Below are positions 1,018 to 20,494 of a stretch of DNA of 21,080 nt, piece after piece (position 1 is the stretch's first letter; each line of letters opens with the position of its first letter). Source of the DNA: Neisseriaceae bacterium (GTDB lineage: Bacteria > Pseudomonadota > Gammaproteobacteria > Burkholderiales > Neisseriaceae); the NCBI GenBank assembly GCA_030151665.1, contig JASLDB010000007.1, positions 1 to 21,080 on the forward strand, in the 5' to 3' direction. The position numbers and the translations under genes are program-made. A model generated the notes under the pieces. It was given only the letters and a program-made list of their open reading frames with translations. It ran no database searches and had not been told where the DNA came from.

Positions 1018-1069
1018 GATAACTGTGAACAATGAGCACACCTTTGATGACTTTATTTGGTTAACGAAC

Positions 1070-2182: not shown

Positions 2183-2194
2183 GGCTGTTTGACG

Positions 2195-4616: not shown

Positions 4617-4626
4617 TGAGCGATCC

Positions 4627-5742: not shown

Positions 5743-6498
5743 ATGCCAAAAGATAGGTTTATGTTTGCCAAAATTCAAGAAAAACTCCAAGTCATTGCCG
5801 AGGAAAAGGCAATTCGTTTTTTATTCGTTGCCGAAAGTGGTAGCCGGGCATGGGGCTTTGCCTCTACTGATAGCGATTATGATGTTCGGGGTATTTATGT
5901 TCAATCCCAAGAAGCATACTTGTGTATCCAGCATGAGGAAGAGGGTTTTGATTGGATAGAGAATGATTGGTTTGACGTGGGTGCATGGGATATTCGAAAA
6001 ACCTTGCGTTTACTGAGTAAATCCAATGCCGTGGTGTTAGAGTGGTTGCAATCGCCTATTGTTTATCAAACAGAGGGCAATGTACAACAAGCATTATTGG
6101 ATTTGGCTCAGGCTTTTAGCCAGCCGCGTCATTTGCTTTATCACTATCGGGGAATCGCAAAAACAGCCAGCAGTGCTTTTGTTAATGATGCCATTCGTTT
6201 GAAAAAATGGTTTTATATCATTCGACCTTTATTGGCGGCACGTTGGGTGGTTAAAGAAGGTGGTATTGCGCCCATGACTTTGGCGCAATTGCAAACCCAG
6301 TTGCCGATTGCAGAGCAAACTTTGCTAACAGATTTGGTGGCATTCAAAGAAGAACAAAGCGAGGAGTATGTGTGGCAGATGGGGCGTGATTATCAGCAAT
6401 TATTGACCCGATTGTGGGATGAGACTCAGGTGGAGCTGCCGATCAAAGATGTGCCCAATATAGCCTTACTAGATGAATGGTTTAGGACACAATTATGA
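5743..6498 (+). CDS. Pol-beta-superfamily nucleotidyltransferase (predicted-nucleotidyltransferase / RlaP-like family), paralog 1
   Basis: The N-terminal motif ESGSRAWGFASTDSDYDVRGIY fits the minimal NTase signature GS-x9-11-D-x-D (hG[GS] plus two catalytic Asp), followed by a helical C-terminal region. An alternative start is possible at 5761. Confidence 0.65.
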   Translation: MPKDRFMFAKIQEKLQVIAEEKAIRFLFVAESGSRAWGFASTDSDYDVRGIYVQSQEAYLCIQHEEEGFDWIENDWFDVGAWDIRKTLRLLSKSNAVVLEWLQSPIVYQTEGNVQQALLDLAQAFSQPRHLLYHYRGIAKTASSAFVNDAIRLKKWFYIIRPLLAARWVVKEGGIAPMTLAQLQTQLPIAEQTLLTDLVAFKEEQSEEYVWQMGRDYQQLLTRLWDETQVELPIKDVPNIALLDEWFRTQL

Positions 6499-7544
6499 AT
6501 TTGGACATTCATGCTATTCGTCCATATTTATTGTTGGAATGTATTTCTGGCAGTAAAGCGTATGGTCTTGATACCGAAACATCGGACACCGATTTAAAAG
6601 GGGTGTTTTACTTACCCAAAGCCATGTGGCTGCGCGGCGAATATGTGGCGCAAGTGAGCAATGATACCAATGATGAAGTGTATTATGAATTGGGTCGATT
6701 CATTGAGTTGCTGTGTGAGTCCAATCCCAGCATGTTGGAATTGCTGCACGCACCGTCAGAAACCATTTTGTATCGCCATGCCATAATGGACCAATTGAAA
6801 AATGACTGGTTTGTGAGTCAGGCGTGTCAAGAGCGGTTTGCAGGCTATGCCATGGGGCAATTGAAAAAAGCGATAGGCTTGAATAAAAAAGCCTTGAATC
6901 CGATGAGCCATGAGAAAAAAAGCTTGTGGTCGTTTTGCTATGTGTTAATGGATGGCCAGAGTATGGCATTGCCAGATTGGTTGGCAAAAAATCAATATGC
7001 CAAAGAAAATATTGGTTTAAGTAAGGTGGCACATGCGCGTGATATTTATGCCATGTACCATGGTGAAAATATGGGGTTTTTGGGCATCGAAAATGGTTCC
7101 AATGCCAAAGAGTTAACCACCAGTAGCATTCCCAAGGGAATGCCTTGTGTGGGTTATTTGAGCATGAATCTCGATGGCTTTAGCAGCTATTGCAAAGAGT
7201 ATCAGTCATATTGGCAATGGATGAAAGAGCGCAACAGCAGTCGCTATGCCAGTAATCAAACTGGCTATGATTGTAAAAACATGATGCACACTTTTCGGTT
7301 ATTGCAATCAGCATTGCATATTGGCAAAACAGGGCAGGTACAAGTGCGAAGTGAGGCGCGCGAAGCATTATTGGCCATTAAATCTGGGCAATATGCGTAT
7401 GATGAACTAATGAGTCAAGCACAAGATTTGATGCAACAAGTGGCTTTGGCATTTGAAAACAGTGTTTTACCACAGGATATTGAGCGAGAAACTGCTAAAA
7501 ATGCTTTGGCAGACATGAGATCTATTTTGTATAACATGGGGTAA
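6495..7544 (+). CDS. Pol-beta-superfamily nucleotidyltransferase, paralog 2 (349 aa), translationally coupled to paralog 1
   Basis: It has the motif ISGSKAYGLDTETSDTDLKGVFY, the same signature as the upstream gene. There is an ATGA start/stop overlap at 6495..6498. The C-terminal domain is larger. Confidence 0.65.
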   Translation: MNLDIHAIRPYLLLECISGSKAYGLDTETSDTDLKGVFYLPKAMWLRGEYVAQVSNDTNDEVYYELGRFIELLCESNPSMLELLHAPSETILYRHAIMDQLKNDWFVSQACQERFAGYAMGQLKKAIGLNKKALNPMSHEKKSLWSFCYVLMDGQSMALPDWLAKNQYAKENIGLSKVAHARDIYAMYHGENMGFLGIENGSNAKELTTSSIPKGMPCVGYLSMNLDGFSSYCKEYQSYWQWMKERNSSRYASNQTGYDCKNMMHTFRLLQSALHIGKTGQVQVRSEAREALLAIKSGQYAYDELMSQAQDLMQQVALAFENSVLPQDIERETAKNALADMRSILYNMG

Positions 7545-8563: not shown

Positions 8564-8998
8564 TTATTGAAATCTCGACGTGCATGCACTAACGACGACT
8601 TCACATGTACCTTTTTCATTGGTGCGATGCCTTGATACCCGTTTATCTTCTTTGGTTTTACCAAAGCCGATTCTCTCAATTTGTCGATAACAATCATTGA
8701 TCGCATAAGATTTTAGATCATAGTAATTGCCACCATAGGTTTCTCGTATGAAATTGTGGGATCTAGAATACGTTAGCATGCCACAAGTGTTTTGAAATTC
8801 AAATACATGGCAACCTGGGCAGTCTTTTTTGACCGCATTTGTTGCACGATTGGCAACTGGATAATCAACACCACTGGATGTCTGCCCTGTTTTTTTATCA
8901 AAGCCAATAGCACCGTAACAATTAGGAAGCCAACAATCCGCAGCATAACTGATGGGAGCAGCAACAAGAATAATCATGCATATTAATATTTTTTTCAT
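8564..8998 (-). CDS. Secreted Cys-rich protein, DUF4189-like (paralog A)
   Basis: It has a signal peptide (MKKILICMIILVAAPISYA) and eight Cys. The motif CxLPNCYGAIGFDKKTG...CPGC...C is shared with the next gene. The ATG at 8998 is preferred over the GTG at 9013. Assignment to DUF4189 is from memory and not verified. Confidence 0.6.
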   Translation of the reverse strand: MKKILICMIILVAAPISYAADCWLPNCYGAIGFDKKTGQTSSGVDYPVANRATNAVKKDCPGCHVFEFQNTCGMLTYSRSHNFIRETYGGNYYDLKSYAINDCYRQIERIGFGKTKEDKRVSRHRTNEKGTCEVVVSACTSRFQ

Positions 8999-9099
8999 CG
9001 GTTTCTGTCTCACAATGGGGATGAATCAATAACAAATTTGATAAATTAACAAAAATATCAAATAACCATTTTAATGAAAATCAAAGTAATCAATCATCA

Positions 9100-9534
9100 T
9101 TAAATAGGGCGTTTGGTGCAGGCTTTAACAGCGATATGGCATTCACCTCGTTCGCCATGTTGTCGGTAAGAGCGTCTTTTGTCTGTGCTTATTTTTGAGT
9201 AGCCGATGTCATTAATTTTTTGACGACAGGTTGCTAAAGCATCTTCTTGTACCATGTCTTCATACCAAGCCGTTTCATAAACTAAAATATTGTGTGTGTT
9301 CGAATAAGCAATAGCCGCACAGGTTTCTTTAAAGGGCACAATTTCACATGAAGGGCATTCCTTTTTGGCAGCCGTGTTTGCTGCATGAATATTGGAATAA
9401 TTTACTTTGCTAGCTGTTTTTCCAGTGTTTTTATCAAATCCAATAATGCCATAGCAATTGGGTAGCTCACATTGAGCATGGGCAAGTTGGCTAAGAAAAA
9501 AGGGCAGGGTTATCAATACTAAAATTTTTTTCAT
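9100..9534 (-). CDS. Secreted Cys-rich protein, DUF4189-like (paralog B)
   Basis: It has a signal peptide (MKKILVLITLPFFLSQLAHA). It is a clear paralog of 8564..8998, with the CELPNCYGIIGFDKNTG and CPSC motifs and eight conserved Cys. Confidence 0.65.
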   Translation of the reverse strand: MKKILVLITLPFFLSQLAHAQCELPNCYGIIGFDKNTGKTASKVNYSNIHAANTAAKKECPSCEIVPFKETCAAIAYSNTHNILVYETAWYEDMVQEDALATCRQKINDIGYSKISTDKRRSYRQHGERGECHIAVKACTKRPI

Positions 9535-9693: not shown

Positions 9694-10701
9694 TTATCGC
9701 ATCTTATCAATGGTATTTTCTTTGTAAAGTTCAAACAATTCTTCAGATTGCATTGGGTTGCTGTTGTACATAGCAATCTGGAGAACCAGTATTATGATGA
9801 TAAAGATTAGTCCTGCATAGCTACCTTGTCTTGGTGGGGCACCATATTCATTGGCTTCTTGGCTGCCTGGCATGAACCATAAATACAGTGAGAAGATAAC
9901 CCAAAATGCAATATATAAGAGAGGGTGCAATAGCTGCAATACAATGCCTATTAATATTGAAAAGAGCGCCCACCAACCCGTTTGGTTGCAATCGTGTAAA
10001 CGAAGAATCATGATTTTAATATAAAAAAACATGGACAAAATACCAGCTATTGCCAATAGTACCGCCGTTAAAATGGGTGATACCACTGCAAACATGAAAA
10101 TGATGATAGTCGCGGGGATGCAGGAAAGAACGAAAATAATAGAGGCATTAAGGTAGTTTAAACGACCATAACGGCCGTTAACACTGAATGAAAAGAGACT
10201 AGGAGGCTCAACGATTTCGTTACGAGATTGCCTCTCATAATAGTTGCTATTGGGGGTGGTATAGGCATTGTTGTCTCGGTAGGTATGGTGATTGCTTTGT
10301 GTGGTTTTGCCACCATAAAACGCATCATCCATATTGATGCCAGCGGTTGTTGGTTTTTGCTGTGATTCTTCTAGTTTTAAACCATGAATAGAGGGGCTTT
10401 TGTAGCCAGCTTGTGCGCCTTGCGAATTGGGTGAGCTGTTATCACCTTGAATACTCAGTTCAGAAACAATGCTTTCTTCCTCAATGGCGATTTGTAGGCC
10501 AATGGTTTGTAACTTTTGCTTTAATTTATTGGCATCTTCAAATGAAATGTTTTTTTTCAACGGGATGCGTTTACCCGAAAAGAAAGTTGCCATTTCTTGT
10601 TCAGATAATTTCAATAAATGCTGTGTTTGATTGCTGACTTGGTGAATATCAAAGCCAGATAATAAACTCCCAGTAAAAACGATACGGTATTTTGCTAGCA
10701 T
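9694..10701 (-). CDS. DUF805-family inner-membrane protein with a 170-aa N-terminal cytoplasmic domain and an Asn/Gln/Tyr-rich linker
   Basis: The C-terminal half carries the DUF805 signature (RLNYLNAS...LRLHDCNQTGWWALFSIL...). It has 3-4 TM helices. The N-terminal region is soluble. Confidence 0.7.
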   Translation of the reverse strand: MLAKYRIVFTGSLLSGFDIHQVSNQTQHLLKLSEQEMATFFSGKRIPLKKNISFEDANKLKQKLQTIGLQIAIEEESIVSELSIQGDNSSPNSQGAQAGYKSPSIHGLKLEESQQKPTTAGINMDDAFYGGKTTQSNHHTYRDNNAYTTPNSNYYERQSRNEIVEPPSLFSFSVNGRYGRLNYLNASIIFVLSCIPATIIIFMFAVVSPILTAVLLAIAGILSMFFYIKIMILRLHDCNQTGWWALFSILIGIVLQLLHPLLYIAFWVIFSLYLWFMPGSQEANEYGAPPRQGSYAGLIFIIIILVLQIAMYNSNPMQSEELFELYKENTIDKMR

Positions 10702-11077
10702 TTAGCCCCCTGCCGGATTATTTATGATTTTGTCATTATTGGCTATGTTAGCATGTTTCATGCGTAATGGCTTGTTTAGACAATAATATTGATTGGAATG
10801 TGTTATTTTTTGTGCATTATTCTAACACAGGCTGGTATTAATTTTATTGGGGTCTGATTTTTGTACTGGATTAGCCATTTTTGGGGTGTTTTGTGTTGTA
10901 TTTTGATTGGTTTATGGATGATGATGCGTCATGTTTTTTAAGTTTGGGATGCAAAGAGGCAGAAATAATGCACAATGATTAATATAAGTTCCACTGCTTA
11001 AATATGATATGGTAATATTTTGGTTCGTATTTTGTTGGTTTTTGAAAACATTATTTATCACATGTAATAAATAATGT

Positions 11078-11106
11078 TTGACATGTAATATCTTTATTAT
11101 GATAAT
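11078..11106 (+). promoter_or_regulatory. Candidate sigma70 promoter (TTGACA -17 bp- GATAAT) ending 6 bp before the ATG at 11113, which implies a leaderless transcript; it is overlapped by the direct repeat ACATGTAATA x2 (11061..11070, 11081..11090)
   Basis: The hexamers and spacing are seen directly. There is no Shine-Dalgarno between the -10 and the ATG. Confidence 0.4.
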
Positions 11107-11112
11107 GTTCTT

Positions 11113-11733
11113 ATGAAAAAAAGTTCTGCACATTACCAGCGGCTGTATCGAGAGCGTTTGCGTGAACAAGGTTTAATCAAAAAAGAAATTTGGATTTTGC
11201 CTGAATACACCGCAATGCTTAATCAGATAGAGCAACAATTTCGCCAAGTCGATAACCTTGTTTTGACGCAAAGTCAGGAGATGATGAGTATGGAGCAAAC
11301 CCCATTTTGGCAAGTGAGTACGTTATTTAGCCAGTTGAAAGAAGCGTGCCAAGCGCAGCAACTTCATGTCGATGTACAGTTGCTTGAGGGGACTGAGCCG
11401 ATTATTCATGTGGTGATGCATGATTTTGGTGATTTGCCATTGTTTATTGCGGTGGCGGGTGAGCAAATTATTGTCGAAGGCACTTTGTGGCCGGAAACCG
11501 CTGTTAAAGATGTGGCTGGTTTTAATGATTTGGTTTTGCGGACACATCAATTGTTTCCTTTGTCGAATATTGGTATTCACAGTTCAGAGGGTATGCCTAG
11601 TTATTACGTGATGTATGGTTCTCTGAATTGCCAGTCGCGCATTAGCAGTGTGATTACAGAAATATTGGTATTGGCAGACAATATTATTAAAGCGACAGAG
11701 GCTTACGAAGCGCATTTGTTTGCGGATGTTTAG
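11113..11733 (+). CDS. YjfI/DUF2170-like (YbjN-type fold) cytoplasmic protein with a 55-aa basic N-terminal extension
   Basis: In E. coli yjfI precedes the PspA paralog yjfJ, and the order is the same here. The C-terminal 150 aa have a YbjN-like alpha/beta pattern. The N-terminus (AHYQRLYRERLREQGLIKKEIWILPEY) is basic and resembles a small DNA-binding module. An internal alternative start with a strong RBS lies at 11279/11282 (AGGAG ATGATG). Family assignment has moderate confidence. Confidence 0.55.
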   Translation: MKKSSAHYQRLYRERLREQGLIKKEIWILPEYTAMLNQIEQQFRQVDNLVLTQSQEMMSMEQTPFWQVSTLFSQLKEACQAQQLHVDVQLLEGTEPIIHVVMHDFGDLPLFIAVAGEQIIVEGTLWPETAVKDVAGFNDLVLRTHQLFPLSNIGIHSSEGMPSYYVMYGSLNCQSRISSVITEILVLADNIIKATEAYEAHLFADV

Positions 11734-11755
11734 CCGATTCATAAGGAGTGACAAA

Positions 11756-12466
11756 ATGAGTATATGGAGCAAAATGATTACCGCCTTGCGTGGTGGTGCA
11801 CATGAAATGGGTGAAAATATTATTGACGGCCAAGCTTTGCGTATTTTGGATCAAGAAATTCGTGATGCAGACGCTCAACTTCGTCAGTCAAAAGCGGCTT
11901 TGGCAGATATTATGGCCAAGCAAAAATTAGCCAAAAATGAAGTCAAGCTGCACGGTGACAAAATTGCGGAATATGAGCAATATGCTGTTCAAGCTTTAGA
12001 AACTGATAATGAAGCTTTGGCTTTGGAAGTGGCAGAAAAAATTGCGAAACTAGAAGTATTGCACACGGAAGCCACAGAGCAAATGACAGCTTACACCAAC
12101 AGTGTTAATCAGTTGCAAAAATCGGTATTGGATGTTGAGAGCCATATTAAGCGGCTCAAACAGCAAGCTGATACGGTGCGGGCAACCGACAGTGTTCAAA
12201 AAGCACAAATGGCTGTCTCCAAAAGTTTTGATGGTTCACAAGCCAAAGTGCATACCGCTTTAGAATCGTTGGAAAAAATTAAAAAGCAACAAGCGCAGCA
12301 AGCTGCTAAATTTGAAGCCCAACAAGAATTGCATCAAATGGGTGCTGATGACGATGCTTTGAATCATAAGTTACAAGCAGCGGGCATTGTGCCAGCAAAA
12401 TCCAGTGCAGACAGTGTTTTATTGCGCTTAAAAGCGAAACAGAAAAATACAGATACTGCTAATTAA
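11756..12466 (+). CDS. PspA/IM30-family protein (phage-shock protein A paralog, YjfJ-like; bacterial ESCRT-III superfamily)
   Basis: An AAGGAG RBS lies 7 nt upstream. The N-terminus (MSIWSKMITALRGGAHEMGENII) fits the PspA amphipathic helix a0. The coiled-coil body aligns with E. coli YjfJ/PspA motifs (EVAEKIAKLEVL, TVRATDSVQKAQMAV). The ORF-track start at 11720 is rejected. Confidence 0.85.
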   Translation: MSIWSKMITALRGGAHEMGENIIDGQALRILDQEIRDADAQLRQSKAALADIMAKQKLAKNEVKLHGDKIAEYEQYAVQALETDNEALALEVAEKIAKLEVLHTEATEQMTAYTNSVNQLQKSVLDVESHIKRLKQQADTVRATDSVQKAQMAVSKSFDGSQAKVHTALESLEKIKKQQAQQAAKFEAQQELHQMGADDDALNHKLQAAGIVPAKSSADSVLLRLKAKQKNTDTAN

Positions 12467-12493
12467 TCCATCACCATGAAAGGAGGCAGCGCT

Positions 12494-13123
12494 ATGTTTA
12501 TGGATATTGCGTTGTCGTTTCCAACTGTTATTTTTTCTGTCTTTTTTGCGGTATCCACTGCTTTGTGGTTGGTCAGTATTATTGGATTATTGGACATTGA
12601 AGCCAATTCTGTGGATATGGAAATGGGTGATGTGTCTGCGACAGGGCAGATGATGGGTGTATTGTCTCGTTTGGGTCTGAGTGGTGTACCCATCACCATT
12701 GTCTTGAGTTTATTGTCCATGATTGGTTGGACAGTGAGCTTTACCTTGCAGTATTTTGCCATGGGCTTGGTTGGCAGTGGTGTTTTGATGTATGTCCTGG
12801 GTGCGGTCATTTTTGTGGTGACATTTTGGCTGTCGATTAAATTGACAGCTTTATTTTGCAAACCTTTGCGGGTATCTCTGGCCAGTCACAGTGCGATTAA
12901 TAAAGCACAACTAATCGGTCAAATGGTGGTGGTGCGTAGCATGAGTGTGACAGCGACTTTTGGGGAGGCTGTTTTTAGCGCTGATGGCGTTACCATGAAC
13001 TTGAGAATCAGAGACAGTGAACAAAAAGGTTTTACCGCAGGGGATCAGGTGGTTTTACTGAAGTACGATAGCACAGCGGATGCTTTTGCTGTCATTAGCA
13101 CAGAAGAATTTAACGGTTTTTAG
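12494..13123 (+). CDS. NfeD-like short-form membrane protein (YqiJ/YuaF-like): N-terminal TM helices plus a C-terminal OB-fold beta-barrel
   Basis: The strong RBS GAAAGGAGG (12479..12486) favours the ATG at 12494 over 12476. There are about 4 TM segments. The C-terminal segment (LIGQMVVVRSMSVTATFGEAVFSADGVTMNLRIRDSEQKGFTAGDQVVLLKY) resembles the NfeD OB domain. NfeD genes classically sit next to SPFH/flotillin genes. Confidence 0.75.
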   Translation: MFMDIALSFPTVIFSVFFAVSTALWLVSIIGLLDIEANSVDMEMGDVSATGQMMGVLSRLGLSGVPITIVLSLLSMIGWTVSFTLQYFAMGLVGSGVLMYVLGAVIFVVTFWLSIKLTALFCKPLRVSLASHSAINKAQLIGQMVVVRSMSVTATFGEAVFSADGVTMNLRIRDSEQKGFTAGDQVVLLKYDSTADAFAVISTEEFNGF

Positions 13124-13166
13124 TTTACATTGCACGCTAACTCATTAATACAAAGGAAAGAACAAC

Positions 13167-15194
13167 ATGAGTCCTATTTTGACCATGATTATCACGTTGG
13201 TGGTCGGTATTGTTATTGCCGTCATTGGTATTTTTATTTTGTTAAAAGCGTTTTATACAAAAGTACCACAAGGCACGGCTTTGATTAAAAATGGCTTGAT
13301 GTTAAGTCAACCGAAAGTCAGTTTTACAGGTGCATTTGTATTTCCAGTGATCCACATTAAAGAATTTATGAAGATTTCTTTGGTTACTTTACAAGTCGAT
13401 CGCCGTGGCAAAGATGGCTTGATTTGTAAAGATAACTTGCGTGCAGACATTACCGTGGCATTTTACTTGCGTGTGAATGAAACGGCTGACGATGTATTAA
13501 AGGTGGCAAAATCAGTGAGTGTGAATCGTGCATCTGATCAAGTCGCCTTGGATGAATTGTTTAATGCCAAGTTTTCTGAAGCTTTGAAAACCGTGGGTAA
13601 ACAATTTAATTTTGAACAGCTATTTGATGAACGCCAAAATTTTCGTGATCGAATTGTGCAAACGATTGGTGAGGATTTGAATGGTTATGCGCTAGAAGAC
13701 GTTGCCATTGATTACTTAGAGCAAACACCAGTTGATTTATTGGATAAAACCAAGATTCAAGATGCGGAAGGTATTCGCAAAATTACAGAATTGACCGCTC
13801 GAGAAGGGGTGGCAACCAATGAATTGATGCGAAACGCAGAATTGGCGATTCAAAAGAAAAACGTAGAAGCCAAAGAAGCATCCTTGGCATTGGAGCGTCA
13901 ACAAGCGACAGCAGAAGCTGCGCAGCGTCGTGAGATTGAGAGTAACCAAGCTCGCGAAACAGCGCAAACTGAAATTGTTCGAGAGCAAGAGCGTTTGCGT
14001 CAAGAAGAAGCACGCATTGCAACACAAGAGCAAATCGAAGTGCGTACCCAAAATCAACAACGTGAAATCGAAGTGGCTGAGCAAAATCGCCAACGTGCGG
14101 TGGTGATTGAAGTGGAAAAAGTCACTCGCTCCAAAGAATTGGAAGTGGTGGCTCGAGAACGCGAAGTCGAATTGCAACGCATTGAAAAAGAAAAAGCATT
14201 GGAGGTTGAACGCAAAGAAATTGCCAATGTGATTCGTGAGCGTGTATCGGTTGAAAAAACCGTTGCGCAAGAAGAAGAAAAAATTAAAGAAGTGCGTGAA
14301 GTATCAGAAGCAGAACGCATGAAAAAAGTATCGATTTTAGAAGCCGAAGCCGATGCAGAACAAGCTTTGGTTCGCCAAGTGAAGCAAGCGCAAGCGGATG
14401 AAGAAAAATCGAAACACCGTGCTGTTGAAATCAATACCTTGGCGCAAGCAGAATTAGAAGCTGCTGCCAAAGAAGCTGAAGCCAAAGCACGCATTGCTGA
14501 AGGCATGAAAGCTGAACGTGCAGCACCTGGTTTGGCTGATGCTCGTGTATTGGAAGTTACCGCTGCTGCCCGTGAAAAAGAAGGCTTGGCAACTGCACGC
14601 ATTAAGCAAGAAATGATGTTGGCAGAAGCGCGTGGTGAAGAAGAAAAAGGTTTGGCACAAGCGCGTGTATTAGAAGCACAAGCCGATGCCAAAGAAAAAG
14701 ATGGTTTGGCAGAAGCCAAAGTCTTGGAAGAAAAATTAATTGCCAAGGCGCGTGGTGAAGAACAAGTTGGTGTGGCACAAGCGAATGTGACCAAAGAACG
14801 TGGTCAAGCTGATGCCAAAGCCTTGTTGGATAAATTCAATGCTGAAGCTGAGGGCTTAACCAAGAAATTTGTGGCTTTGGCTAATATGAGCGAAAGCACC
14901 CGTTCACACGAAGAATTCCGTTTGCAACTTGAAAAAGAATTGAACGAAACATTAACGGCCATTGCTGCAAATAAAGACATTGCCAAAGACCAAGCAGAAG
15001 TTTTGGCTGCTGCATTGTCTAAAGCGAAAGTGGAATTGGTTGGTGGTGGTGGTGAATACTTTAATTCATTCGCTAAATCATTGTCGATTGGCAAGAGCAT
15101 TGAAGGTGTTGTTGGCAAAAGCCCAATGGTGCAAGATTTACTCAGCCGCTTCTTGGGCGGTCAGAAAACTGATTCATTGAACAATATGGATTAA
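13167..15194 (+). CDS. Flotillin-family SPFH/band-7 protein (YqiK/FloT-like), 675 aa, with an N-terminal TM anchor and a very long EA-rich coiled coil
   Basis: An AAAGGAAAG RBS lies upstream. The N-terminal hairpin/TM is MSPILTMIITLVVGIVIAVIGIFILL. The SPFH core is present (e.g. GLICKDNLRADITVAFYLRVNE). It is followed by about 400 aa of E/A/K/R/Q-rich repeats, including four tandem xEKxGLAxAxVLE-type repeats at about 14530..14790. Confidence 0.85.
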   Translation: MSPILTMIITLVVGIVIAVIGIFILLKAFYTKVPQGTALIKNGLMLSQPKVSFTGAFVFPVIHIKEFMKISLVTLQVDRRGKDGLICKDNLRADITVAFYLRVNETADDVLKVAKSVSVNRASDQVALDELFNAKFSEALKTVGKQFNFEQLFDERQNFRDRIVQTIGEDLNGYALEDVAIDYLEQTPVDLLDKTKIQDAEGIRKITELTAREGVATNELMRNAELAIQKKNVEAKEASLALERQQATAEAAQRREIESNQARETAQTEIVREQERLRQEEARIATQEQIEVRTQNQQREIEVAEQNRQRAVVIEVEKVTRSKELEVVAREREVELQRIEKEKALEVERKEIANVIRERVSVEKTVAQEEEKIKEVREVSEAERMKKVSILEAEADAEQALVRQVKQAQADEEKSKHRAVEINTLAQAELEAAAKEAEAKARIAEGMKAERAAPGLADARVLEVTAAAREKEGLATARIKQEMMLAEARGEEEKGLAQARVLEAQADAKEKDGLAEAKVLEEKLIAKARGEEQVGVAQANVTKERGQADAKALLDKFNAEAEGLTKKFVALANMSESTRSHEEFRLQLEKELNETLTAIAANKDIAKDQAEVLAAALSKAKVELVGGGGEYFNSFAKSLSIGKSIEGVVGKSPMVQDLLSRFLGGQKTDSLNNMD

Positions 15195-15198
15195 ACAC

Positions 15199-15226
15199 AA
15201 CAACAGGGGCTTTGGCTCCTGTTGTT
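15199..15226 (+). other. Intercistronic stem-loop (12-bp stem AACAACAGGGGC/GCTCCTGTTGTT with one G-U, UUUG loop) without a U-tract, between the flotillin and giant-ATPase genes
   Basis: Seen directly in the sequence. It is not a canonical terminator. It could be an mRNA-processing, stability or attenuation element that tunes stoichiometry. Confidence 0.45.
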
Positions 15227-15279
15227 ACCATGGGCGATTGATTTAAATCGTGATTGAATCGGTTTGGTAAGGATGGAAG

Positions 15280-18200
15280 ATGCAAAAAGCGGTCGATAAC
15301 GAACAACAAATAGATGCTGCTGTTGCCGAAGGTGGCGCTTATGATGTGCTGTATAAGCGCTTGCAAGGGCAAGGCAGTAGACTTTATACATTTACACAAG
15401 AATTAAACCAAGAGCGCCAGCAGGTTTTTGGTGATACCAGCATGAAGGTGCAAACCCGCATCCGTATTCGCACAGAGAATAATTGTGTTGCTCGAGACAT
15501 TGTGCGGGTGGGTGATTGCTTGTTACTTGGTTATAACGTTTTTATTGGTTTGAAAAAAGAAACCGCCATTAATGATGTGTTTGCTTTGTATCGCCTAGTC
15601 GACATTGAGGATGGCTATGAAGTAGAAGATTTGTCGGTGAGCGATGCTGCATTTTTGAATGACCCACGTTTTGTGATGGATTTTAATGAGCTGCATGCTT
15701 ATTACAGCAATACCCGTTTGATGCAGTTGGTGGTGCGCCAAGATAAATTATTGGCAGCATTTCAAATTGGTGAGCGTTTAACCGATATTCGGGTATTTCG
15801 TTGGGCATTGCCAGTTGATGGCAATATGAATGATGCCAAGTACATTGATAACCGTGGCGATCAAGATATTCAATTGCCAGCGGCTTATGATTTTGAATGG
15901 TTACCATGTACTCGGCGCATGTTGGTGGAAACGGGCAAGCGAGCTTATTGGAATATTGAAGACACTTTGTTTTTGGAAGTGAAAAAAGGCGTGTTGTCGA
16001 TTCAAATTGAAGACAATACTGCTACAGGCCTGACCATTCATGAAGAGATTTTGCAAGATGAAAATCAATCTTTAAACGATATTCGCCTTGAATTTGCACG
16101 CTTAGGCAGTTTGCTGTTGCTGCGTTTTTTACCTTATCGAGAACAGGCTTGGCGCTATTTGGTGTTCAACGATTTGAATAAAAGCATGGTGCGAATTGAT
16201 GCCATTAGCCAAGCTTGTATTCAATTGCCTGAAGACCACGGTATTATTTTTCCGGGCGGTTATTATTTACAAAATGGTGAGCACAAAACATTTGATTTGA
16301 ACATGGATAAAATGCTGTTTGAACGCAGCATTAAATCACCCAATGGCCAAGATGTTTTGTATGCGTTTTATGAAGAAGAAGATGGTGCATCGGTATTGTT
16401 AAATTACGATGTGGTGTCTAGGCAATTGCAAAATCCTATTTTTGGGCATGGTTATGCTCGATATGAAGATGGGCGCATGGTTATTTTTGCAGCAGAAAGC
16501 AATGAACCGACACGGGTTCACCCCATGCAAGTTTGGCAAACGCCTTATTACAGCGATGTATTTGCTGCCAATATGCCCAAAGTCAGTGGTTTTTTTGGTC
16601 GTGTTGGCAACCGTGAGTTGGTGCGGGGGATTTCGGATTTATTGGAAATTAGCCGGTTGATTCAATCAAATACTGTGTCAATCGAGCATTACACCAGTTT
16701 GTGCCAGAGTGTTAAACGCGTTTTTGATGCTTATCATTGGTTGGATGAACAGGTATTAAGTGAGTTGTCGCCTTTACTTAAAGAAGTGGCGGCAACCGCT
16801 GAGTTGGTCTTGGATGAATATGAAAAAGTCCAAGGCATTCAAGCACAATCTAAGGCGGCATTAGCAAATGCAGAACATCAGCAACAAGCATTATTGCAAA
16901 CCTTGTTGCCAGATAGTTGGCAATTGATTTCGGATTATGTTGAGGCATTAAATGGCTTAACAGCTCAACGTGGTTTGTTATTGACCATTAAAGATTTGCG
17001 CTATATTGATGTGGACGCTATTTTGCAAATGGAAGCTGATTTGCAAGCGGCTCATGAAAAAGTGGTGCTTGCCACCGTTGAATTCTTATCACAAAAAAGT
17101 GCGTTTGAGCCGTATTACCAAAGTTTAAATGAATTGGACTTGGCTGTTGAACAAGCCCAAACAGTCAGTTTGTTACAAATACCATTGGATCAGATGAACC
17201 AAATGAGCAGTGATTTGGACATGTTGACTCAATTGGTGAGTACTTTGCAAGTTGATGATGCCACACAAAAAACGCACATGATTGAAGCCATCACCACTGT
17301 TTTTGCTAAACTGAATCAAGGCAAAGCATTGGCGGCTCAGCGTCGCAAAAATTTATTAACGTCTGAAACCTTGCAGCAATTCGGTGCACAGTTCCAATTG
17401 TTTAACCAAAGTGTCACAAGTGCCTTGTCTTTGGCCAATTCTCCTGAAAGTTGCGATGAGCAACTGTCTAAATTATTGGTGCAATTGGAAGATTTTGAAT
17501 CGGCATTTGGTGAACATGAAGCCTATTTAACCGATATTCTCAATAAGCGAGAAGAGGTCTTAGAAAGTTTTGAGTCGCATAAGCAAAGTTTGTTAGACGA
17601 TAGACAGCGTAAGGCACAAGCCATTCAGGATGCTGCTTTGCGAATTATCGAAACCATGCCAAGGCGTTTGGAGCGATTGCAAACCATTGAAGAAATTAAC
17701 GCTTTTTTTGCGGCTGATGCTTTGGTTTTGAAACTAAAAGAGTTGGTGCAGCGGTTACGGGATTTGCAAGACGGAATGCGGGCTGATGACATTGAAGCTC
17801 GATTGAAAAGCACTCAAGACAACGTCATGCGTGCCTTGCGTGACAAAACAGAATTGTTTGAAGATGATGGTCGTGTCATTCGTTTGGGCAAGCATCGTTT
17901 TAGTGTGAATACACAGGCTTTGGACATTACCTTGTTACCACGCAATGGGCAATTGAATATTCATTTGAGTGGAACCGATTATTTTGAACCCACACAAAAA
18001 GCAGAATTTGATGCTTTAAAAGATTTTTGGCAAGTGGTGCATGAATCTGAATCTGGGCAATTGTACCGAGCCGAGTACTTGGCTGTGCAATTTTTGAAAG
18101 CCGCCCGTGCAGAAGAGGGGGATTTACATTGGCAAGATGTGAAAAACCATGTGCATGATTTGGCAGTGCTAACGCAGCAAGTTCGCCAATATGCAACCCC

Positions 18201-20241
18201 ACGCTACAAAGAAGGCTATGAAAAAGGTGTGCATGACCATGATGCTGCTTTGATTATTCAGGCCATTTTGCCAGTGGCTGAATATGCAGGATTGCTGCGT
18301 TATGGTGCATCTGCCCGTGCTTTGGCTTATTTTTTCTGGCATACACAAGCAGCAGAGCAAAAAAGCCTATTACTGGATCGCGCCAAATCCAATCATGCCA
18401 TTTTGCAAGTGTTTGCTTATCCTGCCGGGGTGACTGCCTTACAAGCACAATTGCACCAAGACATGGAAAAATTTGTTGTGGCGCATGAACTGGCTTTTGC
18501 TGAGCAAAGCATCCTGACTGCCGCTGAATTTTTGGTGGCTTGGTTGGCGCAAAATGACACGCCTGAATGGGTGGTGAGTAAGTATGCTGCCCAATTGGCA
18601 CATGGTTTGCAAGTGCGATTGGAAGAGCAGCATGTGTGGTCTGATTTTCAATCGACCTTGGCGCGATTAGCAGCATTTCCCCATTTGCAATGGCAGCAAT
18701 TAAGCAATGCTTTATATGGCTTAAGCCAAGTGGACGAAGAATTATCATTGTTAACGCATTATATTGATGAAGCCGTGGCCATGTTGATTTTGCAAAATGA
18801 GCAAATCTTCCATGTGAGTGAAGTGGCTTTGCAAGTGACGGTTAATCAATTATTGGGTAGCCATGTCTTGATTGAAGAGCGGGCATTGACGGTTTCATTG
18901 GATACTTTATTGGAGCGTGTTCGCTACCAAAATGAAGTGTTTATTCCGCAGTTGCGACGCTATCATTCCTTGCGCGCTGATGTGTTAAAAGATGAGGCCA
19001 ATCATTTGCGCTTGGATGAATTTAGGGCAAAACCCCTGACATCGTTTGTGCGAAATCAATTGATTCAACAAGTGTATTTGCCTGTCATTGGTGATAATTT
19101 GGCCAAGCAAATGGGAACGGTGGGTGAGAGCAAACGCACGGACTTAATGGGTTTGTTGATGTTAATTTCTCCACCCGGTTACGGTAAGACCACTTTGATG
19201 GAGTATGTGGCGGCTCGTTTGGGTTTGATTTTCATGAAAATCAATGGACCATCCTTGGGGCACCGAGTGTATTCATTAGACCCTGCCCAAGCACCAGATT
19301 CGACCTCCGCGCAAGAATTAGAGAAATTGAATTTGGCATTGGAAATGGGCAATAATGTGATGCTGTATGTGGATGATATCCAGCACACCAGTTCAGAATT
19401 TTTGCAAAAATTTATTTCATTGTGTGATGGCACAAGGCGAATTGATGGTGTTTGGCGTGGTCAAACCAAAACATACGATATGCGTGGGCGCCGTTTTTGT
19501 GTGGTGATGGCGGGCAACCCTTATACAGAATCGGGTGAAGTGTTTCAGATTCCAGATATGCTAGCGAACCGTGCTGACGTTTATAACTTGGGTGAAACCT
19601 TGGGCAATATGCAAGAGGCCTTTAACCTAAGCTATTTGGAAAATAGCTTAACGTCCAATCCTATTTTGGCACCATTGGCAACACGTGACATGCAAGATGT
19701 GTACACCTTTATTGATAAAGCTGCTGGCAAAGACATTGCCAATACAGATTTTACTTATCATTATAGCAGTGCTGAAATCCAAGAAATTACCCAAGTATTT
19801 AGTCATTTACTGAAGGTAAGAGAAGTATTGGCTAAGGTGAATGCAGCGTATATTGCCAGTGCTGCCCAAAGTGATGATTACCGAACTGAACCTGCATTTA
19901 AATTACAAGGCAGTTATCGCAATATGAATAAAATGGTGGAGAAAGTATCTGCCATTATGAATGATGTGGAACTGAATCAGTTGGTTTCTGACCATTACCA
20001 AGGTGAGGCACAATTGTTAACCACCAAAGCAGAAGAGAATTTATTAAAATTGTCAGATTTGCGAGGGGTGTTAACGGCAGAAGAAAAAGAGCGTTGGTTA
20101 CAAATTAAAACAGAATTTGTGCACCAACGTAAACATGGCAAAGGCAGTGAAGGCACCGCTAAAATGATGGTGGATGAGCTGCAAAACTTATCCGATGCGC
20201 TCAAAGCCTTAACCGCGAAAGCCATTGTATTTAAGAAGTAA
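15280..20241 (+). CDS. Giant (1653 aa) protein with a single C-terminal MoxR/dynein-type AAA+ ATPase module; the N-terminal 1250 aa are uncharacterised
   Basis: It is the largest uninterrupted ORF in the window, with an AAGGA RBS. Walker A is ISPPGYGKTTL at about aa 1296-1306 (nt 19177..19194). Walker B is VMLYVDDIQ (nt about 19361..19380). Sensor-1 is VVMAGNP. An Arg-containing NRAD motif follows. The N-terminal 450 aa look beta-rich. Residues 480-1250 are long alpha-helical/coiled regions. Confidence 0.85.
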   Translation: MQKAVDNEQQIDAAVAEGGAYDVLYKRLQGQGSRLYTFTQELNQERQQVFGDTSMKVQTRIRIRTENNCVARDIVRVGDCLLLGYNVFIGLKKETAINDVFALYRLVDIEDGYEVEDLSVSDAAFLNDPRFVMDFNELHAYYSNTRLMQLVVRQDKLLAAFQIGERLTDIRVFRWALPVDGNMNDAKYIDNRGDQDIQLPAAYDFEWLPCTRRMLVETGKRAYWNIEDTLFLEVKKGVLSIQIEDNTATGLTIHEEILQDENQSLNDIRLEFARLGSLLLLRFLPYREQAWRYLVFNDLNKSMVRIDAISQACIQLPEDHGIIFPGGYYLQNGEHKTFDLNMDKMLFERSIKSPNGQDVLYAFYEEEDGASVLLNYDVVSRQLQNPIFGHGYARYEDGRMVIFAAESNEPTRVHPMQVWQTPYYSDVFAANMPKVSGFFGRVGNRELVRGISDLLEISRLIQSNTVSIEHYTSLCQSVKRVFDAYHWLDEQVLSELSPLLKEVAATAELVLDEYEKVQGIQAQSKAALANAEHQQQALLQTLLPDSWQLISDYVEALNGLTAQRGLLLTIKDLRYIDVDAILQMEADLQAAHEKVVLATVEFLSQKSAFEPYYQSLNELDLAVEQAQTVSLLQIPLDQMNQMSSDLDMLTQLVSTLQVDDATQKTHMIEAITTVFAKLNQGKALAAQRRKNLLTSETLQQFGAQFQLFNQSVTSALSLANSPESCDEQLSKLLVQLEDFESAFGEHEAYLTDILNKREEVLESFESHKQSLLDDRQRKAQAIQDAALRIIETMPRRLERLQTIEEINAFFAADALVLKLKELVQRLRDLQDGMRADDIEARLKSTQDNVMRALRDKTELFEDDGRVIRLGKHRFSVNTQALDITLLPRNGQLNIHLSGTDYFEPTQKAEFDALKDFWQVVHESESGQLYRAEYLAVQFLKAARAEEGDLHWQDVKNHVHDLAVLTQQVRQYATPRYKEGYEKGVHDHDAALIIQAILPVAEYAGLLRYGASARALAYFFWHTQAAEQKSLLLDRAKSNHAILQVFAYPAGVTALQAQLHQDMEKFVVAHELAFAEQSILTAAEFLVAWLAQNDTPEWVVSKYAAQLAHGLQVRLEEQHVWSDFQSTLARLAAFPHLQWQQLSNALYGLSQVDEELSLLTHYIDEAVAMLILQNEQIFHVSEVALQVTVNQLLGSHVLIEERALTVSLDTLLERVRYQNEVFIPQLRRYHSLRADVLKDEANHLRLDEFRAKPLTSFVRNQLIQQVYLPVIGDNLAKQMGTVGESKRTDLMGLLMLISPPGYGKTTLMEYVAARLGLIFMKINGPSLGHRVYSLDPAQAPDSTSAQELEKLNLALEMGNNVMLYVDDIQHTSSEFLQKFISLCDGTRRIDGVWRGQTKTYDMRGRRFCVVMAGNPYTESGEVFQIPDMLANRADVYNLGETLGNMQEAFNLSYLENSLTSNPILAPLATRDMQDVYTFIDKAAGKDIANTDFTYHYSSAEIQEITQVFSHLLKVREVLAKVNAAYIASAAQSDDYRTEPAFKLQGSYRNMNKMVEKVSAIMNDVELNQLVSDHYQGEAQLLTTKAEENLLKLSDLRGVLTAEEKERWLQIKTEFVHQRKHGKGSEGTAKMMVDELQNLSDALKALTAKAIVFKK

Positions 20242-20252
20242 CAGCAAAAGTC

Positions 20253-20290
20253 AAAAAGCCTTGTCTAGAGAATATCGACAAGGCTTTTTT
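20253..20290 (+). terminator. Rho-independent terminator (AAAAAGCCTTGTC / GACAAGGCTTTTT stem, 11-nt loop, TTTTTT tail) ending the PspA-flotillin-ATPase operon
   Basis: Seen directly in the sequence, 12 nt after the stop of the giant gene. Confidence 0.8.
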
Positions 20291-20494
20291 AAACAACGAA
20301 TATTTTCAATGGCTTGATGTTGTTGGTAGATTGCGCTACAATTATTTTTTAAAAAATTTATTGATATTTAAAAATCAATTTACAAAAGCTATTACTCTTA
20401 TCAAGATATTCAATCACCACATGTGTGTTTTTTCGTTACACTGACTGTATTGAAATTCAACAGACACACAACGAACTTATTTAAGGAGTTAAAA

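What the first reader, a model, noticed from the sequence alone, without database searches (positions are those of the whole stretch)
11756..20241. A bacterial ESCRT-III homolog (PspA family) encoded with an AAA+ ATPase: a possible functional analog of ESCRT-III/Vps4
It is established that PspA/Vipp1/IM30 belong to the ESCRT-III superfamily. In archaea and eukaryotes ESCRT-III polymers are disassembled by the AAA+ ATPase Vps4. Classical bacterial psp operons lack any ATPase.

Here a PspA paralog is co-operonic with an AAA+ protein. That protein is from a different AAA+ clade (MoxR/dynein-like, not meiotic-clade Vps4). This suggests convergent recruitment of an ATP-driven remodeller for a PspA polymer. 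Flotillin/NfeD may provide the membrane platform.
Basis: inference. Interest (0 to 1): 0.6.

Follow-up and report, generated by a model that had tools for sequence, protein, structure and literature searches.

The report
PspA–flotillin–giant AAA+ ATPase membrane operon
This is a real five-gene operon that joins a PspA-type membrane-repair protein to a flotillin scaffold and a giant ATPase, but it is a published type (Pseudomonas aeruginosa bac operon), and the ATPase is always next to the flotillin gene and next to PspA only about half the time.

Summary
One promoter-to-terminator unit (11078-20295, + strand) encodes five proteins: a DUF2170/CesT-like protein, a PspA/IM30 paralog (11756-12466), a 3-TM protein, an SPFH/flotillin-like protein, and a 1653-aa soluble ATPase (DUF3686 beta-propeller-like domain, helical region, C-terminal AAA+).

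It matches P. aeruginosa bacABCDE gene for gene (37-74% identity). That operon was shown by RT-PCR to be one transcript. Ravi et al. 2024 (mSystems) described this operon class and already suggested ESCRT-like, ATP-dependent remodelling.

I examined 129 related loci with enough upstream DNA. The ATPase sits directly after a flotillin-like gene in 127 of them. A PspA gene is nearby in 66 (51%), always paired with a CesT-like chaperone of one of two types. PspA is absent from every sampled non-proteobacterial genome locus and was lost repeatedly within Proteobacteria, yet the ATPase architecture did not change.

The ATPase has no detectable MIT domain. Its AAA+ fold carries a pre-sensor-1 hairpin and is nearest to MoxR, RuvB, MCM and Clp, not to Vps4.

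The likeliest reading is a flotillin/NfeD-like/AAA+ membrane-microdomain machine with PspA and its chaperone as a frequent add-on. A dedicated Vps4 analogue remains possible but untested.

The parts
11046..11079 (.). 34-bp palindrome (17-nt arms, 94% complementary) abutting the -35 hexamer. Candidate operator.
   Evidence: the repeat finder; sequence read. A regulatory role is inferred, not tested.
11078..11106 (+). Sigma-70-like promoter, TTGACA-17-GATAAT (11 of 12 matches). It is the best-scoring site in the scanned region and ends 7 nt before the first ATG.
   Evidence: No sigma-54 -24/-12 match lies upstream, unlike P. aeruginosa bacA (PMC10948618).
11113..11733 (+). DUF2170 / YjfI / BacA-like protein (206 aa), CesT/Tir-type chaperone fold. 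Partner of the PspA paralog.
   Evidence: Pfam DUF2170 2.3e-42. NCBIfam BacA model 261 bits, below its cutoff of 300. PDB 8q8o, DUF2170 family protein, 2e-32. 45% identity to P. aeruginosa BacA.
11756..12466 (+). PspA/IM30-family protein (236 aa), YjfJ/BacB type. ESCRT-III superfamily.
   Evidence: Pfam PspA_IM30 5.7e-42, aa 2-229. 56% identity to P. aeruginosa BacB. No TM segment.
12476..13123 (+). 215-aa membrane protein with three hydrophobic segments and a beta-rich C-terminal domain (BacC; YqiJ/YuaF/NfeD-like according to Ravi et al.).
   Evidence: Hydropathy. 37% identity to BacC. Present directly upstream of the flotillin gene in 73 of 74 genome loci and 50 of 52 metagenome loci. HMM support for YqiJ/NfeD is weak.
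13167..15194 (+). SPFH/Band_7 flotillin-like scaffold (675 aa; BacD). One N-terminal TM segment, an SPFH domain, and a long E/A/K/R-rich coiled coil.
   Evidence: Band_7 25.5 bits against a cutoff of 23.6 on aa 1-300. 5 of 28 family members hit Band_7, best 5e-11. 74% identity to BacD. Present in 127 of 129 related loci.
15280..20241 (+). Giant soluble ATPase (1653 aa; BacE / PA3728 family). Databases name it 'DNA repair ATPase'.
   Evidence: Pfam DUF3686, DUF7902 and AAA_5/AAA. 59% identity to the P. aeruginosa protein. No TM segment.
15388..16737 (+). DUF3686 domain (aa 37-486). An N-terminal helix is followed by a beta-rich, propeller-like module.
17101..17352 (+). DUF7902 (aa 608-691) within the long helical middle region.
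   Evidence: Pfam 2.6e-23.
19129..19599 (+). AAA+ core (aa ~1284-1440). Walker A SPPGYGKTT (aa 1297-1305). Walker B VMLYVDD (aa 1360-1366; DD instead of DE, both invariant). Sensor-1 N1413. Candidate arginine finger R1431. Beta-hairpin before the sensor-1 strand.
   Evidence: Invariant columns in alignments A1 and A2. Pfam AAA_5 27.8 and AAA 26.0 bits. Model secondary structure. Fold searches.
20253..20295 (+). Intrinsic terminator: a 13-bp perfect stem (AAAAAGCCTTGTC / GACAAGGCTTTTT), an 11-nt loop and a T-run. Marks the end of the operon.
   Evidence: The terminator scan missed it because its loop limit is 8 nt.

Best explanation
The locus is a bacABCDE-type envelope-stress operon made of two modules.

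Core module. This is the conserved triad of a 3-TM NfeD/YqiJ-like protein, an SPFH/flotillin-like scaffold and the giant DUF3686 AAA+ ATPase.
- Inferred: the flotillin-like protein is anchored by its N-terminal TM segment and assembles with the small TM protein into a cytoplasm-facing membrane-microdomain scaffold.
- Inferred: the soluble ATPase docks on that scaffold through its propeller or helical regions. It uses ATP to assemble, disassemble or extract protein assemblies there.

Accessory module. This is the dyad of a CesT-like chaperone (BacA type) and a PspA paralog.
- Shown or predicted for P. aeruginosa only: the chaperone binds the PspA paralog and dampens expression.
- Inferred, by analogy with B. 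subtilis YdjI-PspA: on membrane stress, PspA is delivered to flotillin-marked membrane to seal or stabilise it.
- Possible but not shown: PspA polymers are one client of the ATPase.
For: - Domain identities.
- One transcription unit: promoter, short gaps and terminator.
- Gene-for-gene correspondence with P. aeruginosa bacA-E. In P. aeruginosa, RT-PCR shows one operon. All downstream proteins rise 6- to 13-fold in a bacA mutant (PMC10948618). A BacA-BacB contact is predicted with AlphaFold probability 0.98 (PMC13092808).
- Neighbourhood counts. In genomes: flotillin-like 74/74, 3-TM 73/74, PspA 41/74. In metagenomes: flotillin-like 50/52, 3-TM 50/52, PspA 25/52. Three distant look-ups show the small protein, the ~600-690-aa protein and the ATPase, with no PspA_IM30.
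- A PspA HMM that detects E. coli PspA at 1.3e-8 finds nothing within 10 kb in the 33 PspA-less genome loci.
- The ATPase tree needs at least 8 gains or losses of PspA. No indel in the ATPase or the flotillin tracks PspA presence.
- The ATPase has no TM segment; the flotillin has one.
- Precedents: an SPFH protein links PspA to the membrane in B. subtilis (cited in PMC7619361 and PMC9239133). SPFH proteins pair with NfeD and with the AAA+ protease FtsH (PMC2636767).
- Relatives often carry membrane-related accessory genes downstream: PLDc_2, TelA or rhomboid.
Against: - No experiment or structure shows that the ATPase touches flotillin, the 3-TM protein or PspA. Everything about its substrate is guilt by association.
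- PspA-less genomes may encode PspA elsewhere; I could not check whole genomes.
- The PspA dyad recurs in about half of loci, with two unrelated-looking chaperone families. That argues for a tighter functional tie to PspA than "accessory" suggests.
- The AAA model is only moderate (pLDDT 72), and the Walker B motif is DD rather than DE.
- NfeD/YqiJ homology of the 3-TM protein is not confirmed by HMMs here.
Confidence: 0.55

Rival explanations
1. One reading: the giant ATPase is a dedicated, convergently recruited Vps4 analogue. Its job is to disassemble or recycle polymers of the co-encoded PspA (ESCRT-III-like) protein, and flotillin/NfeD is only the membrane platform.
For: - PspA belongs to the ESCRT-III superfamily (established; PMC7619361).
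- PspA is co-operonic with the ATPase in 66 of 129 loci. This includes two independent dyad types, DUF2170 and CesT_Tir_1.
- The genes are co-transcribed and co-regulated in P. aeruginosa.
- Ravi et al. proposed ATP-dependent, ESCRT-like remodelling for PspA-AAA+ associations.
Against: - The ATPase persists at full length, with invariant motifs, in 63 of 129 loci that have no PspA within reach. This includes all sampled Myxococcota, Actinomycetota, Acidobacteriota and Streptomyces loci.
- PspA and the ATPase were never found together without a flotillin gene.
- Pfam finds no MIT domain.
- No PspA-correlated insertion exists in the ATPase.
- The AAA+ clade differs from Vps4.
Confidence: 0.2
2. 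The reverse relationship, as in PspA-PspF. The PspA paralog, buffered by its CesT-like chaperone, is a stress-sensing regulator or adaptor. It inhibits the AAA+ ATPase in unstressed cells and releases it when PspA moves to damaged membrane.
For: - Classical PspA binds and inhibits the AAA+ ATPase PspF and is described as an AAA+ adaptor (PMC7619361 and its references).
- PspF-type NtrC ATPases appear among the fold matches to the AAA model. By general knowledge of AAA+ classification, NtrC-type ATPases also carry a pre-sensor-1 hairpin.
- The dyad is dispensable in many lineages, as expected of a regulatory add-on.
Against: - There is no sequence similarity to PspF beyond generic AAA+ motifs.
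- In P. aeruginosa the regulatory role is attributed to BacA, not BacB.
- No data exist on the ATPase activity.
Confidence: 0.1
3. The database name is right: the large protein is a DNA repair ATPase and sits next to membrane genes by coincidence.
For: The Pfam DUF3686 description ('ATPase involved in DNA repair') and the NCBI product names derived from it. Weak RuvB-like P-loop matches, below threshold.
Against: - No nuclease, helicase or DNA-binding domain was detected.
- In 127 of 129 loci the gene sits next to a flotillin-like gene, usually preceded by the 3-TM gene.
- A full-text search for DUF3686 returned no paper, so no literature support for a DNA repair role was found.
Confidence: 0.03
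4. The cluster is an anti-phage or abortive-infection system that uses membrane proteins as effectors.
For: Large STAND- or AAA-like ATPases with PLD-type nucleases or phospholipases and membrane effectors are common in defence islands. Some relatives carry a PLDc_2 gene downstream.
Against: - No protein matches any PADLOC model beyond coiled-coil noise.
- The locus is vertically conserved in a stable chromosomal context rather than in defence islands.
- The window has no PLD gene.
- P. aeruginosa phenotypes concern biofilm, rhamnolipids and osmotic stress.
Confidence: 0.03

Closest known systems
Pseudomonas aeruginosa bacABCDEF ('biofilm-associated cluster', PA3732-PA3727; Mace 2008, Wallart 2024)
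   Same: Same gene order and strand: DUF2170, PspA-like, ~213-aa TM protein, ~680-aa flotillin-like protein, ~1700-aa DUF3686 ATPase. Protein identities are 45, 56, 37, 74 and 59%.
   Different: - The window has no sixth gene (bacF, PLDc_2). A terminator and then ahpC follow the ATPase.
- The promoter is sigma-70-like with a palindrome, not the sigma-54 site proposed for bacA.
- The ATPase lacks the ~90-aa proline-rich C-terminal tail of most homologs.
- The source organism is unidentified, with about 41% G+C.
CesT/Tir-PspA + band-7/flotillin + novel AAA+ + YqiJ/YuaF operon class of Ravi et al. 2024 (mSystems, PMC11237479)
   Same: [quoted passage not shown] Their remark that abbreviated operons without PspA are more widespread is borne out here.
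   Different: Nothing essential differs. This report adds counts (127 of 129 against 66 of 129), evidence for repeated loss, and structural models. The function remains a prediction in both.
ESCRT-III / Vps4 (archaea, eukaryotes)
   Same: An ESCRT-III-superfamily polymer protein is encoded next to an AAA+ ATPase. The proposed logic is ATP-driven turnover of a membrane-bound polymer.
   Different: - The AAA+ clade is different: a pre-sensor-1 hairpin and a MoxR/RuvB/MCM/Clp-like fold.
- No MIT domain is present.
- The ATPase is about four times larger and has a propeller-like domain.
- Linkage to the ESCRT-III gene is facultative, at about 51%.
- The obligatory partner is an SPFH protein.
PspA-PspF (classical psp regulon)
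   Same: A PspA-family protein is functionally tied to an AAA+ ATPase.
   Different: PspF is a 325-aa sigma-54 activator with a DNA-binding domain, and it is transcribed divergently. Here the ATPase has no HTH domain, and no sigma-54 promoter is present.
SPFH-AAA+ partnerships: HflK/C-FtsH, and SPFH-NfeD operons (YqiJ-YqiK, YuaF-FloT)
   Same: A small NfeD-like membrane protein is followed by an SPFH scaffold gene (PMC2636767). An AAA+ machine is associated with an SPFH assembly.
   Different: - The ATPase is soluble and has no protease domain.
- The flotillin-like protein scores only weakly against Band_7 and gives no Pfam hit to a flotillin C-terminal domain.
- The NfeD relationship is not confirmed by HMM.
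Bacillus subtilis pspA-ydjGHI
   Same: PspA is co-operonic with a flotillin-family SPFH protein (YdjI) that links it to the membrane.
   Different: The Bacillus operon has no giant ATPase and no CesT-like chaperone.
MoxR-family AAA+ (NorQ/NorD, CbbQ/CbbO, RavA/ViaA)
   Same: These give the best target-normalised structural matches (TM 0.40-0.41). AAA_5 scores above its cutoff. The motif AGNPYTESG...IPDMLANRAD resembles the MoxR sensor-1 and arginine-finger region (sequence; recalled consensus).
   Different: There is no VWA-domain partner gene. More than 1200 extra N-terminal residues are present. The Walker B motif is DD.

Membership tests
PspA/IM30 (bacterial ESCRT-III superfamily) | Full-length match to the PspA_IM30 profile | tested here: met
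   144.2 bits against a cutoff of 33.9, aa 2-229 of 236. phmmer against PDB sequences finds nothing at E<=0.01, so it is a divergent YjfJ-type member.
PspA/IM30 (bacterial ESCRT-III superfamily) | Self-assembly into rings, rods or carpets, and membrane binding through the N-terminal amphipathic helix | not testable with these tools
   Only the N-terminal sequence MSIWSKMITALRG, which resembles helix alpha-0 of PspA, can be read. No structure was predicted for this protein.
bacABCDEF / CesT-PspA-flotillin-AAA+ operon class | Collinear genes on one strand: DUF2170, PspA, small 3-TM protein, SPFH/flotillin-like protein, DUF3686 ATPase | tested here: met
   The same order is seen in 41 genome loci.
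bacABCDEF / CesT-PspA-flotillin-AAA+ operon class | Sixth gene bacF (PLD/HKD hydrolase) downstream | tested here: not met
   A terminator at 20253-20295 and then ahpC follow the ATPase. Ravi et al. report this gene only 'in some Proteobacteria', and it was found downstream in only 13 of the 74 genome loci. It is therefore optional.
bacABCDEF / CesT-PspA-flotillin-AAA+ operon class | Sigma-54 (-24/-12) promoter upstream of the first gene, as proposed for P. aeruginosa | tested here: not met
   No TGGCAC-N5-TTGC-like site (up to 2 mismatches) lies between 10702 and 11112. A sigma-70-like site is present instead.
Vps4-type ESCRT-III disassembly ATPase | Classical (meiotic-clade) AAA fold | tested here: not met
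Vps4-type ESCRT-III disassembly ATPase | N-terminal MIT domain that recognises ESCRT-III tails | tested here: not met
   Pfam gives no MIT hit anywhere in the 1653 aa, even at E<=1 for aa 487-1240. The N-terminus is instead a helix plus a propeller-like domain. A remote MIT-like helical bundle cannot be excluded.
Vps4-type ESCRT-III disassembly ATPase | Consistent genomic coupling with an ESCRT-III-family gene | tested here: inconclusive
   A PspA neighbour is present in 66 of 129 loci and absent in 63. PspA genes elsewhere in those genomes could not be checked.
Vps4-type ESCRT-III disassembly ATPase | ATP-dependent disassembly of the polymer | not testable with these tools
   Needs biochemistry.
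MoxR-family AAA+ | AAA_5-type core with a pre-sensor-1 hairpin, and closest folds among MoxR proteins | tested here: inconclusive
MoxR-family AAA+ | Partner protein with a VWA domain | tested here: not met
   No VWA domain occurs in any operon protein, and none appears among the recurrent neighbours.
SPFH / flotillin-like scaffold | SPFH (Band_7) domain after an N-terminal membrane anchor, followed by a coiled coil | tested here: met
   Band_7 scores 25.5 bits against 23.6 on aa 1-300. 5 of 28 orthologs hit Band_7, best 5e-11. There is a single N-terminal hydrophobic segment. An E/A/K/R-rich region spans aa ~220-560 (sequence).
SPFH / flotillin-like scaffold | Flotillin C-terminal domain or a relative among solved flotillin structures | tested here: not met
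   No Pfam hit other than Band_7. A profile search of PDB sequences found nothing at E<=0.01. 'Flotillin-like' therefore rests on architecture and on Ravi et al.
NfeD / YqiJ / YuaF family | Profile match to YqiJ_N, YqiJ_OB or NfeD | tested here: inconclusive
   The window protein scores E 0.71 against YqiJ_N. Only 1 of 28 orthologs hits YqiJ_OB, at 0.013. A profile search against the PDB gave no hit. The architecture (three hydrophobic segments, then a beta-rich C-terminal ~85 aa) and the position upstream of an SPFH gene fit the family.

The most novel reading that the evidence does not exclude
The DUF3686 giant ATPase is a true ATP-driven remodeller of bacterial membrane-scaffold polymers. 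It would act on SPFH/flotillin cages in all lineages and on PspA (ESCRT-III-like) assemblies where the CesT-PspA dyad has joined the operon. That would make it the first bacterial counterpart of Vps4 function, built from a MoxR-like rather than a meiotic-clade AAA+ domain.
Probability: 0.22. Interest if true: 0.75.

Novelty: new member of a known kind. Interest (0 to 1): 0.35.

Why it matters
Recent reviews state that bacteria appear to lack a Vps4-like ATPase for their ESCRT-III homologs (PMC7619361, 2025) and that only the ESCRT-III genes seem widely conserved in bacteria (PMC13051332, 2026). How PspA polymers are turned over is therefore an open question.

This operon class is the best genomic candidate for an ATP-driven partner. 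It has a tractable model in P. aeruginosa, where it affects biofilm formation, rhamnolipid secretion and virulence.

The counts obtained here redirect the first experiment. The ATPase should be tested against the flotillin/3-TM pair at least as seriously as against PspA. The database label 'DNA repair ATPase', applied to many of these proteins, is probably wrong.

Tried and rejected
- A full-text search for 'DUF3686' found no paper.
- A search that included 'bacE' was swamped by BACE-1 papers and yielded nothing new.
- PDB sequence searches found nothing for the PspA paralog, for the flotillin-like protein (single sequence and profile), or for the 3-TM family profile.
- A PDB search with the AAA region matched only about 40 residues around Walker A of classical AAA proteins. 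That is not informative about clade.
- PADLOC found no defence-system match.
- The sigma-54 motif search gave chance-level results, with none upstream of the operon.
I cross-checked in two ways. A Pfam scan of 150 flanking ORFs from most of the PspA-less loci (the remaining 32 selected ORFs were not scanned) did not list PspA_IM30 among the families hit by 2 or more members. A broader HMM that does detect E. coli PspA (1.3e-8) gave the same negative result.
- A search for insertions or deletions in the ATPase or flotillin that track PspA presence found none.
- An exact-sequence cluster look-up did not reveal the source organism.

Full report
**What is in the window.** Five consecutive + strand genes lie between a strong sigma-70-like promoter match (TTGACA-17-GATAAT, 11078-11106) and a 13-bp-stem intrinsic terminator (20253-20295).
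- 11113-11733: a DUF2170 protein. Pfam gives 2.3e-42. It matches the NCBIfam 'biofilm formation regulator BacA' model at 261 bits, below that model's cutoff of 300. It also matches PDB 8q8o at 2e-32.
- 11756-12466: a PspA/IM30 protein, 5.7e-42 over aa 2-229.
- 12476-13123: a 215-aa protein with three hydrophobic segments.
- 13167-15194: a 675-aa protein with one N-terminal hydrophobic segment, an SPFH/Band_7 domain (25.5 bits against a cutoff of 23.6 on aa 1-300) and a long E/A-rich coiled coil.
- 15280-20241: a 1653-aa soluble protein with DUF3686 (3.9e-180), DUF7902 and a C-terminal AAA+ domain.

The gaps between genes are 22, 9, 43 and 85 nt. The finding's coordinates and gene content are therefore correct.

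**It is a known operon type.** P. aeruginosa PA3732-PA3727 (bacABCDEF) has the same order. Identities to the window proteins are 45, 56, 37, 74 and 59% for BacA to BacE.
- Wallart et al. 2024 (PMC10948618) showed by RT-PCR that the six genes form one operon.
- They also showed that BacB to BacF rise 6- to 13-fold in a bacA mutant, and that BacA has a T3SS-chaperone fold.
- A 2026 study predicts a BacA-BacB complex with AlphaFold probability 0.98 (PMC13092808).
- Ravi et al. 2024 (PMC11237479) describe this class explicitly. [quoted passage not shown]
- They note that abbreviated operons without PspA are more widespread. [quoted passage not shown]

The window's copy is a divergent new member. 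Its ATPase is a singleton cluster, and the best homolog is 62% identical. It lacks bacF, and its promoter is sigma-70-like with a 34-bp palindrome rather than a sigma-54 site.

The ATPase family is large.

I fetched three sets of loci:
- the 80 best genome loci (43-59% identity);
- 80 metagenome loci seeded from a distant member (28-47% identity to it);
- three look-ups of distant clades.

I annotated neighbours with iteratively built HMMs.

| Set | Loci with enough upstream DNA | Flotillin-like | 3-TM | PspA |
|---|---|---|---|---|
| Genomes | 74 | 74 | 73 | 41 (all with DUF2170) |
| Metagenomes | 52 | 50 | 50 | 25 |

- Of the 25 metagenome PspA loci, 16 carry DUF2170. The other 9 carry a different chaperone, CesT_Tir_1 (PF22550, 1.2e-56).
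- The three distant look-ups show a small protein, a ~600-690-aa protein and the ATPase, with no PspA_IM30.
- Overall, a flotillin-like gene is present in 127 of 129 loci and PspA in 66 of 129.
- My first PspA HMM was blind to canonical PspA, so I verified the negatives twice. A Pfam scan of 150 flanking ORFs did not find PspA_IM30 in two or more of them. A broader HMM that detects E. coli PspA at 1.3e-8 found no hit at E<=1 in any of the 33 PspA-less genome loci.

**Evolutionary pattern.** On a neighbour-joining tree of the ATPases, all 17 loci from Myxococcota, Actinomycetota, Acidobacteriota, a Clostridia MAG and delta-proteobacterial MAGs lack PspA.
- The proteobacterial clade has 41 PspA-positive and 16 PspA-negative loci.
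- At least 8 state changes are needed on the whole tree.
- Apparent losses occur in Stenotrophomonas/Luteimonas, in Xenorhabdus/Providencia/Limnobaculum, in Paraglaciecola, in one Pseudoalteromonas, in a zetaproteobacterium and in two Aquabacterium.
- In Marinobacter and a Cellvibrionaceae genome the dyad is present but transcribed divergently.
- No insertion or deletion in the ATPase or the flotillin-like protein tracks PspA presence. Walker A, Walker B, sensor-1 and the candidate arginine finger are invariant across the family.
- PspA and the ATPase never occur together without a flotillin gene.

The constant functional unit is therefore the 3-TM / flotillin / ATPase triad. The chaperone-PspA dyad is a frequent, twice-invented but dispensable addition.

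**The ATPase itself.**
- The N-terminal model is confident (pLDDT 88.5, pTM 0.85). It has a long helix (aa 20-50), a beta-rich propeller-like body (aa 56-420) and then helices.
- The C-terminal model is moderate (pLDDT 72). It shows a canonical AAA+ core with a beta-hairpin immediately before the sensor-1 strand.
- Foldseek top hits are MCM, RuvB, NorQ and CbbQ (TM 0.40-0.41 normalised to target), Lon and ClpB. p97 appears only at rank 45, and no Vps4, spastin or katanin appears.
- Pfam finds no MIT domain and no VWA partner.
- The Walker B motif is DD rather than DE.
- The public name 'DNA repair ATPase' has no support from domains, context or literature.

**Most likely mechanism.**
- Shown: the gene identities, the single transcription unit, and the conserved triad.
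- Shown in P. aeruginosa only: co-transcription, co-regulation by BacA, and effects on biofilm and virulence.
- Inferred: the flotillin-like SPFH protein and its small TM partner build a cytoplasm-facing scaffold. This follows other NfeD-SPFH pairs (PMC2636767).
- Inferred: the soluble ATPase docks there and uses ATP to remodel assemblies. An SPFH scaffold working with an AAA+ machine has a precedent in HflK/C-FtsH.
- Inferred: the chaperone keeps the PspA paralog in check until it is needed at flotillin-marked membrane, as with B. subtilis YdjI-PspA.

I put 0.55 on the flotillin-centred model, 0.2 on a dedicated Vps4 analogue and 0.1 on PspA as regulator.

**Verdict.**
- The thing is a new, divergent member of a published operon class. 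The hypothesis has already been voiced in the literature, so novelty is low.
- The underlying biological question is still open: recent reviews report no Vps4-like ATPase for bacterial ESCRT-III proteins.
- The counts here sharpen which experiment to do first.
- Interest is 0.35.

Noticed in passing
window 11046-11079: A 34-bp palindrome (AAACATTATTTATCACA | TGTAATAAATAATGTTT) abuts the -35 hexamer of the operon promoter. It looks like an operator for a dimeric repressor. The promoter is sigma-70-like, whereas a sigma-54 site is proposed for P. aeruginosa bacA.
   Followed up: partly
window 20253-20295: A clear intrinsic terminator lies after the ATPase gene (13-bp perfect stem, 11-nt loop, T-run). 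The terminator scan missed it because it allows loops of at most 8 nt.
   Followed up: yes
L134, L138, L144, L152, L156, L158, L159, L162, L163 (e.g. L138:3841-4967): A second PspA-positive version of the operon. A 128-131-aa CesT_Tir_1 protein (PF22550, 1.2e-56) replaces DUF2170 in front of the PspA gene. The source organisms are unknown (metagenomes).
   Followed up: partly
L042:15404-17212, L022:15340-15915, L049:15189-15905: Relatives carry different membrane-related genes just after the ATPase gene: TelA (13 genome loci, 8 of them PspA-less), a rhomboid protease (9 loci) or a PLDc_2 hydrolase (bacF type, 13 loci). TelA might substitute for PspA in some lineages; this was not examined.
   Followed up: partly
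L112:4494-11822: One of two loci with an ATPase homolog but no flotillin gene (the other is L135). In L112 an AIM24-family gene and an M48 peptidase gene precede the ATPase gene.
   Followed up: no
L040, L041, L043, L063, L154: In Marinobacter, a Cellvibrionaceae genome and one metagenome contig, the DUF2170-PspA dyad lies next to the triad but is transcribed divergently. Co-regulation there cannot come from a shared transcript.
   Followed up: no
window 15280-20241 and homologs P0002-P0120: NCBI and UniRef name this family 'DNA repair ATPase', following the Pfam DUF3686 description. Nothing in the domains, gene context or searchable literature supports a DNA repair role. The name is probably a propagated misannotation.
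   Followed up: partly
window 8564-9013 and 9100-9534 (- strand): Two tandem paralogous genes encode small cysteine-rich proteins with signal-peptide-like N-termini. The 9100-9534 protein hits DUF4189 (3e-11). The other was not scanned; its translation is visibly similar. They sit just upstream of a DUF805 membrane protein (9694-10701) that carries an N-terminal extension of about 170 aa.
   Followed up: no
window 5743-7544: Two adjacent RlaP-family nucleotidyltransferase genes ('RNA repair pathway DNA polymerase beta family') follow an ABC transporter cluster (989-5628). That cluster includes a type I phosphodiesterase gene.
   Followed up: no
window 11113-11310 (aa 1-65 of the DUF2170 protein): The BacA-like protein has a basic N-terminal extension of about 65 aa (YQRLYRERLREQGLIKKEIWILPE...) outside the DUF2170 domain. 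The 8q8o match starts only at aa 82, so the extension is not covered by it. It could be a DNA-binding element matching the nearby palindrome, given BacA's reported negative effect on the operon.
   Followed up: no
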